Origin: an uncultured Bacillota bacterium | Lineage (GTDB): Bacteria; Bacillota_I; Bacilli_A; RF39; UBA660 | Length of the DNA: 64,000 bases | Assembly (NCBI GenBank): GCA_948466255.1 | Contig: CAOJZV010000003.1 | Span: forward strand, 9,722-73,721 | Direction of reading: 5' to 3' | Shown: positions 42,534 through 58,930 of the stretch, piece after piece | Position numbering within the stretch: the first letter of the stretch is position 1 | How the letters are laid out: each line of letters begins with the position of its first letter | Notes under the pieces: generated by a model | The model's input: only the letters and a program-made list of their open reading frames with translations | Databases searched by the model: none | Told to the model about the DNA's origin: nothing | Program-made: the position numbers and the translations under genes

Positions 42534-42552
42534 GGTTACACCTCTAATAAAG

Positions 42553-42589
42553 TATATGAAAAAAGAACAATTATTTATCTAATTGTTCT
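42553..42589. repeat. 37-bp exact direct repeat, left copy (terminator hairpin)
   Basis: tatatgaaaaaagaacaattatttatctaattgttct, identical to 45289-45325. Confidence 0.95.
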
Positions 42590-44462
42590 ATCTAGTTTTA
42601 CCTTGCTCTGGATTGTGTTCTACATAATTATCAAAATCAATCCATAAAGCGTTTCTCATATCCTGTTTTTCTTTTTCAGTTAAATTAGGATTATTATTGA
42701 TTTCTTGTTCTAATTTAGTATAACCTTCTAAATTTTGATCAACTGAATAATCTGGTGAAAGTTCAGGTTGATTTAATATTTCTTGACTTTCTTCTAATAA
42801 TTCTTGGGTCTTAGGTGAATATTCTGAATTTTTCTTCTTAATTATTTCATCTACTTGATCTTTTGTCAAATAGCCATATTGTTTTCCATCAGTTTTCTTA
42901 AGTTCCTCTGAAAGATTTTTTACTCTAGTTGCTTCATCCATAGGAACAATTTCTTCTTTAAAGTCTAAATTTTCTTCAGCTCGTGCTGTTATAGTACCAT
43001 TTGCAAGGCCTTCTGCAAGTTTAACGACATTTTCTTTTTTGGATTCTTCTACATCTAATTTCTGCTCCATATCATCATCTAATAAAATATTTTCAGCTTC
43101 TTTTGATATTTGAGAATTTAAATAATCAAACAAATCTACATATTGGTCTCTATGATAAGGTTCTTTTTCAAATTTTGTATTTGTATATGCATTTTTTCTT
43201 TCCTCTTCTAATTTAACTCTATCACAACTTTTTGCCATAGCTAATGCCATATCATCAGATAATCCATATATTTCTTGTTGTAATGCAAATAAATCTTTAT
43301 TTAATTCATCAATAGATTTTTCATCATATCTATGCTCATTAATAAAGTCTGTTCTTGTAATTTGAGATAGAGCTTGTTTTGCCTGCATAGCGATTTTTTC
43401 TTTTTGTGCCAAATCAAGTATAGATGTCTGTTGATGCTGATTATTAATAGCACTTGATTCTACTGCAATTTCCGTTTTTACATTTACGGATAAGTTATTT
43501 AAAAGTTCTACCTTTTTTTGCTCATATAACATTGGATCTTCAAGTTTCTCATCACTTAACCTTTTATTAAGAAGTTCTGCGACATATCCGCTCGTAAATA
43601 ATTCAAAGTATTTTTCATCTTTAATACCTAAATCATGTGCCCTATTAATTAATCCATTTATTGATGGATAAGTTTTTGTCACATCTTCATTAATTAAAGA
43701 CACAATCATAGCACTATTCATTAACGCTTCTTTAACTTCCTCCTCATTCATTTGCTCAAATAACCTATCCCATTCTTCATGATTTAACTTCCCGTATTTA
43801 TCTAATTCAGATTTTACCTCTTTCGGAAGCTCTTCCATATTTTCATTAATAGTAGTTAATCTTCTTTTTTTCTCATTAATTGTATCAGTAAGTTTATCAG
43901 CTAATTCATCCGCTTTTTCACCTGCTAAACTTGATTTTAAATTTTCCAAAGCTATTTCTGATTCAGTTATATCTTGAGTTAATTTTTGTTTAGTATCTGA
44001 TAACAAAGCATACATCCCACATTTAGCTGGTTGTGATGCTAAACGGCTAACTGAAGTCGCAGTATAGTTGCTTACCTTTGAAAAAATATCAACATACTTA
44101 GGTGTGCCCAATATCCATTTAATATTTTCTGGTAAATTACATAAAAGTTCATACTTTTTTTCTTCATAATCCCATTTACCATAGGCATTTTTTTTACTTA
44201 ATCTCTTATCTAAAAGTTCCGCAACATACCCATTTGTAAATAATTCATAACTATGACTATCATTAACATGCAATTGCTTCGCTCTTTCAAATAAACTGGT
44301 AATTGACGGATAACTTTTAGATACATCTTCATTAATTAAAATAGAAATTATATTTTTATCCATTAACATCTCTTGTATCTGTTCAGCATTCATTTGTGCA
44401 AATAATTTATCCCATTCTTCATGAGTTAAATTTGCATAATCTAATTCATTCATTTTACTCAT
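42588..44462 (-). CDS. 624-aa acidic hypothetical protein with two ~110-aa internal repeats
   Basis: Duplicated HEEWD.LF.QMN...INEDV.K.YPSI...ELFT.GYVAELL.KRLS...KK.ELL.NL; ends EQGKTR. Confidence 0.85.
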   Translation of the reverse strand: MSKMNELDYANLTHEEWDKLFAQMNAEQIQEMLMDKNIISILINEDVSKSYPSITSLFERAKQLHVNDSHSYELFTNGYVAELLDKRLSKKNAYGKWDYEEKKYELLCNLPENIKWILGTPKYVDIFSKVSNYTATSVSRLASQPAKCGMYALLSDTKQKLTQDITESEIALENLKSSLAGEKADELADKLTDTINEKKRRLTTINENMEELPKEVKSELDKYGKLNHEEWDRLFEQMNEEEVKEALMNSAMIVSLINEDVTKTYPSINGLINRAHDLGIKDEKYFELFTSGYVAELLNKRLSDEKLEDPMLYEQKKVELLNNLSVNVKTEIAVESSAINNQHQQTSILDLAQKEKIAMQAKQALSQITRTDFINEHRYDEKSIDELNKDLFALQQEIYGLSDDMALAMAKSCDRVKLEEERKNAYTNTKFEKEPYHRDQYVDLFDYLNSQISKEAENILLDDDMEQKLDVEESKKENVVKLAEGLANGTITARAEENLDFKEEIVPMDEATRVKNLSEELKKTDGKQYGYLTKDQVDEIIKKKNSEYSPKTQELLEESQEILNQPELSPDYSVDQNLEGYTKLEQEINNNPNLTEKEKQDMRNALWIDFDNYVEHNPEQGKTR

Positions 44463-45115
44463 TATATATCACTCTCTTCCTTATTTTCTAAATTAATTCT
44501 TTCTATATCAGTTACTTTTTTATTTTCATAAGTTATTTTATAAATATCAGGTGCTGATGGTGTTCCATTTAATATTTCTTTTCCATTAAAAGTAATATTG
44601 AATTTTTTTCCATCGAATGTTTGAGTTGCAATGCTTCCTAGATATGATAGTAATATTATTCCATGGATTACTACTGCAGTACTTTCTTTTTCACCATTTA
44701 ATACTTCATTAATGAAATTTTGTACTCTTTTATCCATATCATTAAAGGATTCATGAGTATTTAGTTTTAAATTTTTGTTGCCAAACATTTGCTTATTAAA
44801 ATCATCTGGCATTTCTCTATAATATTCTACATCAAAATCTATTTCATTAATTCTTTTATCTAATTTTATAGAAAGATTTTTCTTGTCTGCTAAATATTTT
44901 GCAGTAGCAATTGCTCTAGGAGAACTACTCGCATATAATTCATCAATATTATTTAATTCTTCTATATCGCAAAGTTTTTTCGCCTTTTCCTCACCTTGTA
45001 CTGATAAAATCATATTTCTATTATATTCTTCCCAAGGTACATTCTTATAATTTTCATAATTTTTAATATTCACGCCTGTCATTGAATGCCTTATCAAATA
45101 AATAGTTTTTATCAA
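44462..45115 (-). CDS. Histidine phosphatase family protein
   Basis: YLIRHS, LS..G, YASSSPRAIATA, LNTHESF, VIHG; TTG start with GGAGG RBS. Confidence 0.82.
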   Translation of the reverse strand: MIKTIYLIRHSMTGVNIKNYENYKNVPWEEYNRNMILSVQGEEKAKKLCDIEELNNIDELYASSSPRAIATAKYLADKKNLSIKLDKRINEIDFDVEYYREMPDDFNKQMFGNKNLKLNTHESFNDMDKRVQNFINEVLNGEKESTAVVIHGIILLSYLGSIATQTFDGKKFNITFNGKEILNGTPSAPDIYKITYENKKVTDIERINLENKEESDI

Positions 45116-45209
45116 TGTAACCCCTCCATTTTTAGTATTTGTAGTAATTCTTATATTACCATAACGAATAGCAACACTTTGTTCAATGTATATTTTACTT
45201 TATGAGTAT

Positions 45210-45244
45210 ATTATACCCCCCCCCCCCCCCCCTGGTTTTGGCAA
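45210..45244 (-). promoter_or_regulatory. SigA-type promoter with a G17 homopolymer in the spacer
   Basis: Minus strand TTGCCA (45239-45244), 23-bp spacer containing 17 G (C run 45216-45232), TATAAT (45210-45215). Confidence 0.7.
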
Positions 45245-45288
45245 GTGTTTTTGGGCATAAAATAGCACAAGGGGTAAAAAAATGTAAA

Positions 45289-45325
45289 TATATGAAAAAA
45301 GAACAATTATTTATCTAATTGTTCT
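45289..45325. repeat. 37-bp exact direct repeat, right copy (tmk terminator, overlaps the tmk stop)
   Basis: Identical to 42553-42589; contains the last codons of tmk (EQLDK*). Confidence 0.95.
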
Positions 45326-56435: not shown

Positions 56436-58721
56436 TTACCAATATTCTTCTTCAGGAGGATCATACTCATAACAATACGCATCACCCGTACTTGTAACTT
56501 TACATTGCAAATTTACTACACCTGAAGAATCAGTGGTATAGGCCTCCACCTGACCATTAGTATTAGCCGTAAAATTGTAACGGGAATATTTTGAACAACG
56601 GTAGAGTGCTGAATTAAAATAATTACAAAATCCACCAATATTTTTAAACCATGTTTGCTGGTCTTGTAATAATGTTTGATTTGATGTAAAATAACTTGAA
56701 CTTCCACCCTGCAAACAAACTTCTTTATCCGTTACAAAACATACATATGATGCTGTTATTTTATTACTAGCATCTATCCTATGTTTTAAATAAAAATCAC
56801 GCTTTAATGTTGACGGATCTTTAGTAGTAGATTTCCCAGTTATACTATCTCCTATCTTTAATGTGCTTTCTGACCAACTATATACCTCTGCTGGTTTTAC
56901 CGTAACTGTATAACTACTACTTACTGTATTTTTTCCATCACTTACTGTTCCAGATAATGTTCCTGAAGCTGTAAATGATACATTTGCGGTTGTACTTGTT
57001 ACATTTACTGCTGCTGCACTATCTTTTTTATATGTACATGTATAGGCGCTTCCACATCCTGATGGATATGTTATTGTTACAGTCTTTGTTGTTGTTCCGG
57101 TTTCTTTATAAGTTGGTACTGCTATTGAATTTGGCTGTACTGATGTACTTGCTGATGTTGTTGTTTTTTCTATACCTGATGTTACTCTTACTCGTATCTG
57201 ATATGATTTGGTATTTACTAAATTATTAAATGTATATGTCTTATTTGTTCCGTTACTTACCCATGTGCTTCCACCATCATTACTAAACTCATATTTTGTT
57301 ATTCCACTTGTTGCGGATGCTGTTGCTACTACAGTTATTGACTTTGTTGTTTTTGATGTGGCAACTGATAATGTTGGATTGCTTATATCATATCTAATAT
57401 TGAATGATTGTGAAGAATCAGAAACATTTCCAGCCGTATCAATTGCTCTAAAAATAACTGTTTGGTTTCTATTAAATAGGCTCCATCCTTCAACACCGTA
57501 ATAGGTGTTTCCCTCTTTTTGAATACCACTAGTATATCCGAATGAAAAAGTTGTCCATGTTTGTCCATTATCCAATGAATATTGCATTGAAGCTATTCCG
57601 CTGCCCTCTTCTTTAGTGGATATTTTAGTTAATACTAATTTATCAGTCCATGTTCCACTTGTATATTTTGAGCTTTCGCCTTCATCGGCATAATAGGCTA
57701 TATATGTTGGTGCAGTTGGTTTTATATCGTCTACAGCTTGTGCAGTTAACGTTATATTTTGATTTATATTTATTTTATCTCCTGCATTACCTACTTTTGT
57801 TTCACCATTATACCAGCCTTGTATTGTATATCCAGTTGCAGTTATAGATGGTAATGTTATTTCACAGTTTATTGCATTATTATATAAATAACATGTTTCA
57901 TTTTCTTTTCCGATACTTGTTATTCCGTCACCTTTGGCATAATTTACTTTTAAACCTTTTCTAAATATTGCATATAAGGTTGTATTTTGCGATGGCATAT
58001 TTATACTTGTTAAGGCTTCTTTTGCATCTTTATTAGTATTCCAACCAACAAGTTCATATCCTTCTTTATTAGCGGTTTGATTTAAGTTTATATTTGAGTT
58101 TTCAGCAAAATATTCATTATAAGTTGTACAATTACTTCCTCCATTTGTGATGCAGTCATAGGTTACTAAATATCTATCTGGAGATATTATTTCTCCTCCT
58201 TCTCCTTGGCTATAATTATCATTTTGGGTATAATTTAATTCTATACTTACTTCTCCTGATCCTTCTTCTATCGTTCCCGTAAATTCTGGATTATACTCTA
58301 CTTTTACTTTTATTACTTGGTTCTTTCCTTTTTCTAGTTTTTGTCCTTTTGTATATCCTGAAAAACTTATTTTTACTGCTTCGTTACTTGATTTTATATT
58401 ATCGGTTATATTTTCTAATTTTGCATCTAGTGTTCCTTTATTTTCTACGGTTACATCATATTCTACATAGTCACCTTTTTCATATAGGTTTGCTTCCATA
58501 TAAGCTGTTAGGTTTGTCCATGTAGGCGCACCTACTGTTTCTGCTCCGCCTGCTTTATTTGATTCCGTTACGCTTGTTATAACAACTTCCCAATTACTAT
58601 TTATATTACTTGTTCCTTTTATTTTTAAATTGGTTTGAAAAGCTGCATAGCCTGCTGTCATGATACATAATAGTCCTAGCAATGATATTATTATTGTTTT
58701 ATTTTTTCTTTTTTCCCTCAT
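56436..58721 (-). CDS. Large secreted surface protein: TasA/SipW-class-like N-terminus, InlB-B/Flg_new-like repeats, Ig-like domains, Cys-rich C-terminal domain
   Basis: N-terminus KTIIISLLGLLCIMTAGYAAF; K.GY...GW..., TLYA repeats; Thr/Ser-rich beta segments. Confidence 0.75.
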   Translation of the reverse strand: MREKRKNKTIIISLLGLLCIMTAGYAAFQTNLKIKGTSNINSNWEVVITSVTESNKAGGAETVGAPTWTNLTAYMEANLYEKGDYVEYDVTVENKGTLDAKLENITDNIKSSNEAVKISFSGYTKGQKLEKGKNQVIKVKVEYNPEFTGTIEEGSGEVSIELNYTQNDNYSQGEGGEIISPDRYLVTYDCITNGGSNCTTYNEYFAENSNINLNQTANKEGYELVGWNTNKDAKEALTSINMPSQNTTLYAIFRKGLKVNYAKGDGITSIGKENETCYLYNNAINCEITLPSITATGYTIQGWYNGETKVGNAGDKININQNITLTAQAVDDIKPTAPTYIAYYADEGESSKYTSGTWTDKLVLTKISTKEEGSGIASMQYSLDNGQTWTTFSFGYTSGIQKEGNTYYGVEGWSLFNRNQTVIFRAIDTAGNVSDSSQSFNIRYDISNPTLSVATSKTTKSITVVATASATSGITKYEFSNDGGSTWVSNGTNKTYTFNNLVNTKSYQIRVRVTSGIEKTTTSASTSVQPNSIAVPTYKETGTTTKTVTITYPSGCGSAYTCTYKKDSAAAVNVTSTTANVSFTASGTLSGTVSDGKNTVSSSYTVTVKPAEVYSWSESTLKIGDSITGKSTTKDPSTLKRDFYLKHRIDASNKITASYVCFVTDKEVCLQGGSSSYFTSNQTLLQDQQTWFKNIGGFCNYFNSALYRCSKYSRYNFTANTNGQVEAYTTDSSGVVNLQCKVTSTGDAYCYEYDPPEEEYW

Positions 58722-58930
58722 ATTGTCACCTTAGTCTATCTTAAATAGATTATACCTTCTTTTTAGTTAGAAATGCAAGTGTTTATGGTAGTAAAGTGTG
58801 TAAAAAATGGTATAGTACATTTTTAATATAAATGTTTTTATTCAAATTATTACAATTAAGATTAGAAATCTAATTTACAAAATCCAAAAATTTAGTTATA
58901 ATTAAATTAAAAATAAAGGAGGCTATAGTT

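What the first reader, a model, noticed from the sequence alone, without database searches (positions are those of the whole stretch)
45210..45244. G17 tract in a -35/-10 spacer: candidate phase-variable promoter, apparently in the OFF state
Seen: TTGCCA and a perfect TATAAT separated by 23 bp, of which 17 are G, in a genome where G/C runs are otherwise rare. G11 would give the optimal 17-bp spacer. Known: spacer homopolymers tune expression by slipped-strand mispairing (Neisseria porA, Mycoplasma vlp). Inference: stochastic ON/OFF switching of the phosphatase + 624-aa operon. Caveats: homopolymer length may be mis-assembled, and a weaker TTGAAC-17-TATGGT promoter candidate lies downstream.
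Basis: partly seen in the sequence, partly recalled or inferred. Interest (0 to 1): 0.72.

Follow-up and report, generated by a model that had tools for sequence, protein, structure and literature searches.

The report
Slippery poly-G promoter switch cassette
A run of 17 G's sits between the two recognition boxes of a promoter, and it is one copy of a promoter module repeated about 19 times in this uncultured gut bacterium. The run's length differs between near-identical strains, so it is very probably a mutation-driven dimmer or off switch of a well-known kind, here set far from the working length.

Summary
On the minus strand, TTGCCA (45244-45239), AAACCA, G17 (45232-45216) and TATAAT (45215-45210) give a 23-bp spacer, and this is the only G/C run of 7 or more in the window. 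It is not a lone oddity. The genome (a 68%-complete, 28% GC gut Bacilli MAG) holds about 19 copies of cTTGCCAAAACCA-Gn-TATAAT (n = 7-22, mode 14). All 14 other copies with a readable gene head one secreted-protein family.

At this locus other metagenome assemblies carry G14 or G15 where the window has G17. In four of those five contigs the flanks show 0-5 mismatches (nine in the fifth), and the tract is the only indel. Across related genomes, linker length and G-run length compensate each other (r = -0.82), holding the total spacer at 18-19 bp. Paralogues without a G-run have fixed 18-bp spacers. The likely working length here is therefore about G12, not G11, and G17 is the most extreme copy, so it is probably weak or off.

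The promoter belongs to a 2.7-kb strain-variable cassette (histidine phosphatase plus an orphan 624-aa protein). A degenerate inner promoter may give basal expression. Raw reads could not be examined and expression is untested. This is a known mechanism in a new lineage and context.

The parts
45239..45244 (-). -35-like hexamer TTGCCA of the poly-G promoter P1. It is part of the conserved left arm cTTGCCAAAACCA.
   Evidence: Every exact copy of the left arm in the genome (10 copies) is followed by a G-run. The same arm occurs in G019 and G125.
45233..45238 (-). 6-nt linker AAACCA between the -35 hexamer and the G tract
   Evidence: Linker length (3-10 nt) covaries inversely with G-run length across relatives.
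45216..45232 (-). G17 homopolymer (C17 on the + strand), the hypermutable part of the spacer
   Evidence: The same locus carries G14 or G15 in other assemblies, and the tract is the only indel.
45210..45215 (-). -10 hexamer TATAAT of P1
   Evidence: It directly abuts the G-run in all typical copies except the C20 copy, whose -10 is TATAAA.
45158..45186 (-). Inner promoter candidate P2, TTGAAC-17-TATGGT, inside a conserved leader block (CATTGAAYAAAGTGT..TATTCGTTAT..)
   Evidence: Paralogous leaders carry TTGAAT-17-TATAAT (C10, C12) or TTGAAT-17-TATAAC (C11). In this copy the -10 is degraded but keeps positions 1, 2 and 6.
44462..45115 (-). Histidine-phosphatase-superfamily gene (217 aa, TTG start, GGAGG at 45127-45123)
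   Evidence: PF00300, E 6.9e-19; weak matches to the cobC and PspA families, all under their cut-offs. The ATG start used by gene callers (206 aa) would remove the catalytic RH motif.
42588..44462 (-). 624-aa orphan protein. It has no signal peptide, an internal duplication of about 214 aa, and a start that overlaps the phosphatase stop.
   Evidence: (D1-D3). One search found only 2 homologues among 5.8 billion proteins.
45286..45325 (-). tmk terminator hairpin, which is the right copy of the 40-nt direct repeat bounding the cassette
   Evidence: D4, 98% identity; 37 nt exact; fold -11.5 kcal/mol, z -4.3, followed by a U6 run.
42550..42589 (-). Left copy of the direct repeat. It serves as the terminator of the cassette operon and overlaps the stop codon of the 624-aa gene.
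   Evidence: Start-to-start spacing is 2736 bp. L071 has a single copy followed directly by a GDPD gene.
58749..58778 (-). Homologous promoter of a paralogue without a G tract, TTGCAT-18-TATAAT, ahead of the 761-aa family member at 56436-58721. It acts as an internal calibrator of the working spacer length.

Best explanation
The G17 run is the variable spacer of a sigma-A-type promoter (P1: TTGCCA-AAACCA-Gn-TATAAT).

Shown directly:
- The module is repeated about 19 times in this genome.
- In 14 of the 15 copies where the gene can be read, it heads a paralogous family of secreted proteins with a conserved SipW-type signal (..GYAAFQTN..).
- Here the same module, with its class-b leader, heads a 2.7-kb strain-variable cassette encoding a histidine phosphatase and an orphan 624-aa cytoplasmic protein.

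Inferred mechanism: slipped-strand mispairing during replication adds or removes G's. That changes the -35/-10 distance and so changes how well RNA polymerase uses P1. The family's working distance is about 18 bp, which corresponds to G12 at this locus. The alleles seen are G14, G15 and G17 (20, 21 and 23 bp), all longer than that. In the window's strain P1 is therefore predicted to be weak or off. Residual transcription may come from the degenerate inner promoter P2 (TTGAAC-17-TATGGT).

Basis of each step: the architecture, the copy family, the between-strain length differences and the spacing constraint are shown. The slippage mechanism, the working length and the expression consequence are inferred.
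For: 1. Anatomy and non-randomness.
2. Cassette family: and 9 list the copies. One search shows that every exact left arm is followed by a G-run. One search finds 29 family members, 17 with a homopolymer promoter (14 poly-G, 3 poly-T18).
3. Hypermutability at this locus: five spanning contigs from other samples carry G14 (L079) or G15 (L066, L068, L075, L080) against G17 in the window. Flanks show 0-9 mismatches over 0.9-6.7 kb and the tract is the only indel. Two other loci differ by one G between samples (G13/G14, G16/G15). Many contigs break at the tract.
4. Spacing is under constraint, so the hexamers work as a promoter:
   - Across 24 genome/linker groups, linker length against G-run length gives r = -0.82 and slope -0.86. 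The variance of the sum is 0.96 against 5.35 expected, with permutation p < 5e-5.
   - Total spacers peak at 18 bp (16 loci) and 19 bp (26 loci).
   - G125 has 26 uninterrupted copies, all G10-G12 with an 8-nt linker, plus one copy whose 12-nt run is interrupted by a T. In G019 the mode is G12 with a 7-nt linker.
5. The G-run is a replaceable spacer. Five non-G paralogues have AT-rich spacers of exactly 18 bp at the homologous position.
6. Ordinary promoters in this genome peak at 17 bp (57), then 18 bp (21), so 23 bp lies far outside the usable range.
7. Precedents: M. hyorhinis vlp poly-A promoters (PMC10502178). B. pertussis Pfim3 poly-C, where 11-16 C coexist in one culture, 14C is on and 13C is off (PMC10172299). 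T. pallidum tpr and tp0126 poly-G (PMC7864442).
Against: - No reads could be examined, so within-population heterogeneity is not shown. The lengths come from low-coverage Illumina assemblies (2-19x), which are unreliable for G14-17.
- There are no expression data.
- Most copies in this genome sit at 19-21 bp, longer than the proposed optimum. Either most copies are off or low in the sampled population, or poly-G spacers work at slightly longer lengths than I infer.
- No allele near G12 was seen at this locus in six assemblies.
- P2 could make P1 irrelevant for this operon.
- MutS is present, so slippage is not boosted by loss of mismatch repair.
- The genes controlled here are cytoplasmic, unlike classic contingency loci.
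Confidence: 0.75

Rival explanations
1. The tract is real, but its apparent length differences are sequencing or assembly noise. The promoter has one fixed, non-canonical spacer, and there is no switching.
For: Coverage of the compared contigs is 2-19x. Contigs often end at the tract in garbled poly-C/G sequence typical of Illumina artefacts. Homopolymers of 14-17 are hard to call.
Against: G15 recurs in four independent assemblies, and G14 and G17 differ from it by 1-2. Differences are seen at all three loci examined and nowhere else in up to 6.7 kb. Within one genome the copies range from G7 to G17, and across species the runs track linker length, so real length change has clearly occurred repeatedly in evolution.
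Confidence: 0.08
2. The G tract is a functional element in its own right, such as an activator-dependent promoter like Bordetella fim or a structure-forming G-rich spacer. On this reading it works at 19-21 bp, so the copies in this genome are mostly on and length variation is nearly neutral fine-tuning.
For: The modal spacer is 20 bp in this genome and 18-19 bp in relatives, always at or above 17 bp. The length distribution in G125 is tight. The left arm CTTGCCAAAACC is conserved across genera beyond the hexamer. In Pfim3 a 14-C tract is the on state.
Against: Paralogues of the same family run the homologous promoter with AT-rich 18-bp spacers and no G tract, so no G-specific factor is needed. 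The compensation slope close to -1 is what a pure distance constraint predicts. Even on this reading, 23 bp is the outlier.
Confidence: 0.12
3. The conserved promoter modules mainly serve as recombination crossover points for shuffling or capturing genes. The poly-G tract is a by-product or a break-prone site.
For: L202 joins the upstream flank of one family locus (C27 type) to the gene of another (C6 type) exactly at the G tract. This locus shows the family module attached to an unrelated operon within a cassette bounded by direct repeats. In L071 sequence identity ends at the terminator.
Against: L202 may be a chimeric assembly through a low-complexity repeat. Other poly-G loci have no flanking direct repeats. 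Recombination use would not explain the spacing compensation.
Confidence: 0.05

Closest known systems
Mycoplasma hyorhinis vlp system (Citti and Wise 1995, as summarised in PMC10502178)
   Same: Several paralogous surface or secreted-protein genes each have their own promoter with a homopolymer. The 5' region and signal sequence are highly conserved while the C-terminal parts are divergent. Each gene switches independently by insertion or deletion in the tract. The tract position between -35 and -10 in vlp is from my own knowledge.
   Different: The tract here is poly-G (plus a minor poly-T18 class) instead of poly-A. The proteins carry a SipW-type signal, not a lipoprotein signal. The loci are dispersed rather than clustered. 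The host is an uncultured spore-forming gut commensal. At this particular locus the module drives a cytoplasmic accessory operon.
Neisseria meningitidis porA (poly-G) and opc (poly-C) promoters (van der Ende 1995; Sarkari 1994; cited in PMC5084427)
   Same: A G/C homopolymer between or next to the -35 and -10 elements sets promoter strength in steps through spacer length.
   Different: In porA, G11 gives the canonical 17-bp spacer (my own knowledge). Here the family's fixed spacing is 18 bp and observed tracts run to 13-17. porA and opc are single genes, whereas this is a family of about 19 modules.
Bordetella pertussis fim2/fim3 promoters (PMC10172299)
   Same: The tracts are long (11-16 C) within the promoters of paralogous surface-structure genes. 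One nucleotide more or less switches expression, and several lengths coexist in one culture.
   Different: The fim promoters need the activator BvgA~P bound over the -35 region. No activator is indicated here, and non-G paralogues suggest plain sigma-A promoters.
Treponema pallidum tprE/G/J, tprL and tp0126 poly-G promoters (PMC7864442)
   Same: Poly-G tracts within the promoters of a paralogous surface-protein family, where only certain lengths permit transcription.
   Different: In T. pallidum short tracts (8 or fewer) are permissive for tprE/G/J. The genome is GC-rich, and the position of the tract relative to the hexamers differs.

Membership tests
Homopolymer promoter-spacer phase variation (porA / vlp type) | A homopolymer lies between the -35 and -10 hexamers of a sigma-70-type promoter upstream of the regulated gene | tested here: met
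   One search shows the sequence. The hexamers act as a functional pair because the spacing is conserved through linker/G-run compensation and fixed-spacer paralogues exist.
Homopolymer promoter-spacer phase variation (porA / vlp type) | Tract length is polymorphic between closely related strains | tested here: met
   G14, G15 and G17 occur at this locus with 0-9 flank mismatches, and the tract is the only indel. The caveat is low-coverage assemblies.
Homopolymer promoter-spacer phase variation (porA / vlp type) | Several tract lengths coexist within one population, with high-frequency reversible change | not testable with these tools
Contig breaks at the tract give only indirect evidence.
Homopolymer promoter-spacer phase variation (porA / vlp type) | Transcription depends on tract length | not testable with these tools
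   No RNA data or reporter assay was available. The prediction rests only on spacing statistics.
Homopolymer promoter-spacer phase variation (porA / vlp type) | The regulated product is a surface or contingency determinant | tested here: not met
   At this locus the products are a His_Phos_1 enzyme and an orphan protein with no signal peptide. The feature is met for the other 14 readable copies.
Vlp-like multigene variable surface-protein system | Many paralogues each have their own homopolymer promoter, a conserved 5' region with signal peptide, and variable C-terminal domains | tested here: met
   17 of 29 family members have G or T homopolymer promoters. C-terminal domains include CBM_4_9, Flg_new, ALK_LTK_GRD and Gp10_C.
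Vlp-like multigene variable surface-protein system | The products are lipoproteins with a lipobox signal | tested here: not met
   The N-termini read ..LLFIMTVGYAAFQTN.. with no lipobox cysteine. SipW/archaeal-type signal peptidase genes are present (TIGR02228 over its cut-off).
Bordetella fim-type activator-dependent poly-C promoter | Requires a response regulator bound over the -35 region | not tested
   No regulator was identified. Non-G paralogues with plain 18-bp spacers argue against this requirement.

The most novel reading that the evidence does not exclude
Uncultured small-genome gut Bacilli (RF39/'Tenericutes'-like MAGs from rabbit, mouse, human and other guts) may run a lineage-wide, vlp-like 'phasome'. 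On this reading, dozens of portable promoter modules per roughly 1.3-Mb genome each have a G (or T) homopolymer in place of an 18-bp spacer. Each module independently toggles one member of a SipW-type secreted-protein family. The same module can be captured by strain-specific accessory cassettes, such as this phosphatase operon inserted at the tmk terminator. Stochastic promoter-length switching would then be the main regulatory mode of the variable surface and accessory genome in a major commensal clade. The excess of over-long tracts would mean that most copies are kept silent at any one time.
Probability: 0.4. Interest if true: 0.65.

Novelty: new member of a known kind. Interest (0 to 1): 0.5.

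Why it matters
Promoter-spacer homopolymer switches are textbook biology in a few pathogens (Neisseria, Bordetella, Mycoplasma, Treponema). I found no paper describing them in RF39-like gut commensals.

Here they are frequent. There are about 19 poly-G and at least 3 poly-T modules in 1.05 Mb. Of the sampled species in the genus, 22 of 61 have matches, some with more than 20 copies, and another genus has 27 copies.

This has three consequences:
- Surface display in an abundant uncultured commensal clade may be largely stochastic.
- MAG annotations and expression predictions for these genes depend on tract lengths that short-read assemblies call poorly. The tracts also break assemblies.
- The fixed-spacer paralogues and the linker/G-run compensation give a natural calibration curve for how spacer length is selected.

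For this particular locus, a family promoter module has been attached to an unrelated accessory operon, which puts a cytoplasmic function under the same lottery.

Tried and rejected
I substituted cross-sample contigs.
- A riboswitch or known RNA in the leader: Rfam gave nothing meaningful.
- A defence-system or phage link for the operon: PADLOC gave nothing, and PHROGs gave only an unknown-function family for the phosphatase.
- Function of the 624-aa protein: there were no Pfam or NCBIfam hits and only 2 homologues in 5.8 billion proteins. Relatives share only pieces of it, with no poly-G nearby.
- Loss of mismatch repair as the cause of the long tracts: rejected, because MutS is present in the genome and its relatives.
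- Direct-repeat-bounded cassettes as a general feature of poly-G loci: rejected, because only this locus has one.
- A 'nearest TTG' rule for finding the -35 hexamer mis-assigned several loci. I replaced it with a best-match rule. G139 remains ambiguous and was analysed both with and without (r = -0.58 and -0.82).
- An A-form-like geometry of G tracts as the reason for longer spacers: I considered it but leave it as speculation, since the fixed 18-bp paralogues explain most of the offset.
- The papers on porA (PMC176907) and the fim promoters (PMC2975811) are not held.

Full report
**Observation.** On the minus strand the window reads cTTGCCA (45244-45239), AAACCA (45238-45233), G17 (45232-45216) and TATAAT (45215-45210). 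This is the only G/C run of 7 or more in the 64-kb window: 11 overlapping G7 matches against 0.40 expected, and 0 of 100 shuffles reach that count. The hexamer pair alone is not beyond chance. The tract follows the terminator hairpin of tmk (45325-45289; -11.5 kcal/mol, z -4.3, then U6). Downstream lie a histidine-phosphatase gene (44462-45115; PF00300, E 6.9e-19) and an overlapping 624-aa ORF (42588-44462). The phosphatase must start at the TTG at 45115, which has GGAGG 7 nt upstream. The ATG chosen by gene callers (206 aa) would remove the catalytic Arg-His motif.

**It is one copy of a module.** The window lies in a 1.05-Mb, 32-contig, 68%-complete MAG with 28% GC. Genome-wide, G/C runs fall off by length 8 and reappear only at 11-22. 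The long runs sit in one context, cTTGCCAAAACCA-Gn-TATAAT, with n = 7, 11, 13 (five copies), 14 (eight, the mode), 15 (three), 16, 17 and 22. Every exact copy of the left arm is followed by a G-run. Several copies lie at contig ends, so the module breaks assemblies.

**What the other copies drive.** Of the 15 copies whose downstream gene can be read, 14 head one paralogous family. Its members share an N-terminus such as MRRRKRRKQRKIIIISSLTLLFIMTVGYAAFQTNINI.. and have diverse C-terminal domains: CBM_4_9, Listeria-Bacteroides repeats, an ALK/LTK-type glycine-rich domain and phage Gp10_C. A census finds 29 family members, 17 with a homopolymer promoter. The GYAAF motif resembles SipW-type (TasA/camelysin-like) signal peptides; that resemblance is my own knowledge. 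SipW/archaeal-type signal peptidase genes are present (TIGR02228 over its cut-off). The locus under study is the single exception, because the module here heads cytoplasmic-looking genes.

- At this locus the spanning contigs carry G14 (L079) or G15 (L066, L068, L075, L080), against G17 in the window.
- Flanks show 0-9 mismatches over 0.9-6.7 kb, and the tract is the only indel.
- About eight further contigs end at the tract, often in garbled poly-C/G sequence.
- Two family loci behave the same way: G13 against G14, and G16 against G15, with 0 mismatches in 1.7-1.8 kb.

These are low-coverage Illumina assemblies, so each single length is uncertain, but the pattern is consistent.

**The hexamers form a real promoter with a constrained spacing.**
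- The same layout recurs in relatives: 22 of 61 sampled species of the genus and 6 of 121 sampled genera of the family have matches, with zero hits for the reversed control pattern.
- Left arms and linkers differ between genomes (3-10 nt), and G-run length compensates. Across 24 genome/linker groups, r = -0.82 and the slope is -0.86. The variance of linker plus run is 0.96 against 5.35 expected under independence, with permutation p < 5e-5. Including the ambiguous G139, r = -0.58 and p = 0.001.
- Total spacers peak at 18 bp (16 loci) and 19 bp (26 loci).
- G125, from another genus, has 26 uninterrupted copies, all G10-G12 after an 8-nt linker, plus one copy whose 12-nt run is interrupted by a T.
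- G019, identifiable by its contig lengths as the rabbit-gut MAG 'uncultured Bacilli Lapin-012__bin34', has a mode of G12 after a 7-nt linker.

**Calibration of the working length.** Ordinary TTGACA-like/TATAAT pairs in this genome peak at 17 bp (57), then 18 bp (21). Family members that lack a homopolymer carry the homologous promoter at the same distance from the start codon. In all five recognisable cases it has an AT-rich spacer of exactly 18 bp. One of them is inside the window: TTGCAT (58778-58773), 18 bp, TATAAT (58754-58749), ahead of the 761-aa gene at 56436-58721.

Two things follow. The G-run is a replaceable spacer and not a binding site. In this genome four copies sit at 17-18 bp and the rest at 19-23 bp, with one at 13 bp. 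The copy under study, at 23 bp, is the most extreme typical copy. The alleles in other samples (20-21 bp) are still longer than the inferred optimum.

**Local context.** The promoter, the phosphatase gene and the 624-aa gene form a 2736-bp unit bounded by a 40-nt direct repeat (45286-45325 and 42550-42589; 37 nt exact). That repeat is the tmk terminator, which confirms an earlier first-reader note.

One assembly (L071) has an identical tmk followed by a single terminator copy and then a GDPD gene directly. Its GDPD allele is only 78% identical to the window's, so identity ends at the terminator. The unit is therefore strain-variable. No other poly-G locus has such flanking repeats.

Between P1 and the start codon lies a leader block shared with 'class b/c' family loci. 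In those loci it contains TTGAAT-17-TATAAT. Here it reads TTGAAC-17-TATGGT (45186-45158). It may still give basal transcription, so a complete off state is not assured.

The 624-aa protein is an orphan. Only 2 homologues turned up among 5.8 billion proteins, there are no family or defence-system hits, and relatives share only fragments with no poly-G nearby.

**Mechanism and rivals.** The best reading (confidence about 0.75) is a slipped-strand, spacer-length promoter switch or dimmer that is off or low at G17.
- Pure artefact is unlikely (0.08), given recurrent lengths and variation confined to the tracts.
- A G-tract-specific or activator-dependent promoter working at 19-21 bp (0.12) would explain why most copies are 'too long'. 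The fixed 18-bp paralogues count against it.
- A mainly recombinational role (0.05) is suggested by L202, where the flank of one locus joins the gene of another exactly at the tract. That contig may be chimeric.
- Mismatch repair is present, so its loss does not explain the long tracts.

**Comparison with known systems.** The closest analogue is the M. hyorhinis vlp family. Others are meningococcal porA and opc (cited), B. pertussis fim3, where 11-16 C coexist in a culture with 14C on and 13C off, and the T. pallidum tpr and tp0126 poly-G promoters. Literature searches found no description of such promoters in RF39-like gut Bacilli. Earlier notes from this scan report similar poly-G promoters in other uncultured gut lineages. 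I treat those as leads that agree with my reading, not as evidence.

**Verdict.** This is a new member of a known kind, of moderate interest.

Noticed in passing
G000 contigs C14:1033-1050, C22:7300-7317, C22:8396-8413, also C14:30624-30640 (outside the window): A second homopolymer promoter class serves the same protein family: ..ttaCCTTG-T17/18-ATGATAcgctgtatatggtggaaaagaATGAGAAGAAG. It recalls the poly-A promoters of vlp. The hexamer assignment is unclear.
   Followed up: partly
window 56436-58778 (- strand): A 761-aa member of the secreted family sits inside the window. Its promoter is homologous to the poly-G module but has a fixed AT-rich 18-bp spacer (TTGCAT-18-TATAAT), making it a natural 'locked' version.
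   Followed up: yes
window 42550-45325: A 2736-bp cassette with no recombinase is bounded by a 40-nt duplication of the tmk terminator. It is absent in assembly L071, where sequence identity with the window stops exactly at the terminator (the GDPD allele is 78% identical).
   Followed up: partly
L202:260-400 against G000 C27:7150-7215 and C6:31330-31420: One metagenome contig joins the upstream flank of the C27 family locus (next to CotE) to the gene of the C6 locus, with the crossover at the G tract. This is either recombination between modules or a chimeric assembly.
   Followed up: partly
window 45083-45115: Gene callers start the phosphatase at an internal ATG (206 aa), which removes the catalytic RH motif. 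The TTG at 45115 with a GGAGG ribosome-binding site is the likely true start.
   Followed up: yes
window 43476-44432: The 624-aa orphan gene contains an internal duplication with a 642-nt period (about 214 aa, 70-79% nucleotide identity). Its C-terminal ~90 residues recur in otherwise unrelated proteins of related species.
   Followed up: partly
L084-L200 (genome-contig scan): G12 or longer directly followed by TATAAT occurs in many other taxa. These include other uncultured Bacilli/'Tenericutes' MAGs, Firmicutes CAG:822, Saccharibacteria, Treponema, Gastranaerophilales, Clostridia, two Streptococcus suis strains, and three sites in one Dehalococcoidia chromosome.
   Followed up: no
G000 C8:1-80; L074:1-60, L077:1-55, L081:1-65: Contigs that end at a poly-G module often carry garbled poly-C/G sequence (for example CCCCCCCtcgCCCCCCCCgCCCCCCCC). 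These are probably sequencing artefacts and should not be read as biology.
   Followed up: no
G001, G004 (same genus): Some species of the genus carry 7-9 matches to the SipW/archaeal-type signal peptidase family, several of them in ORFs of about 385 aa. That is an unusual expansion next to the expanded secreted family.
   Followed up: no
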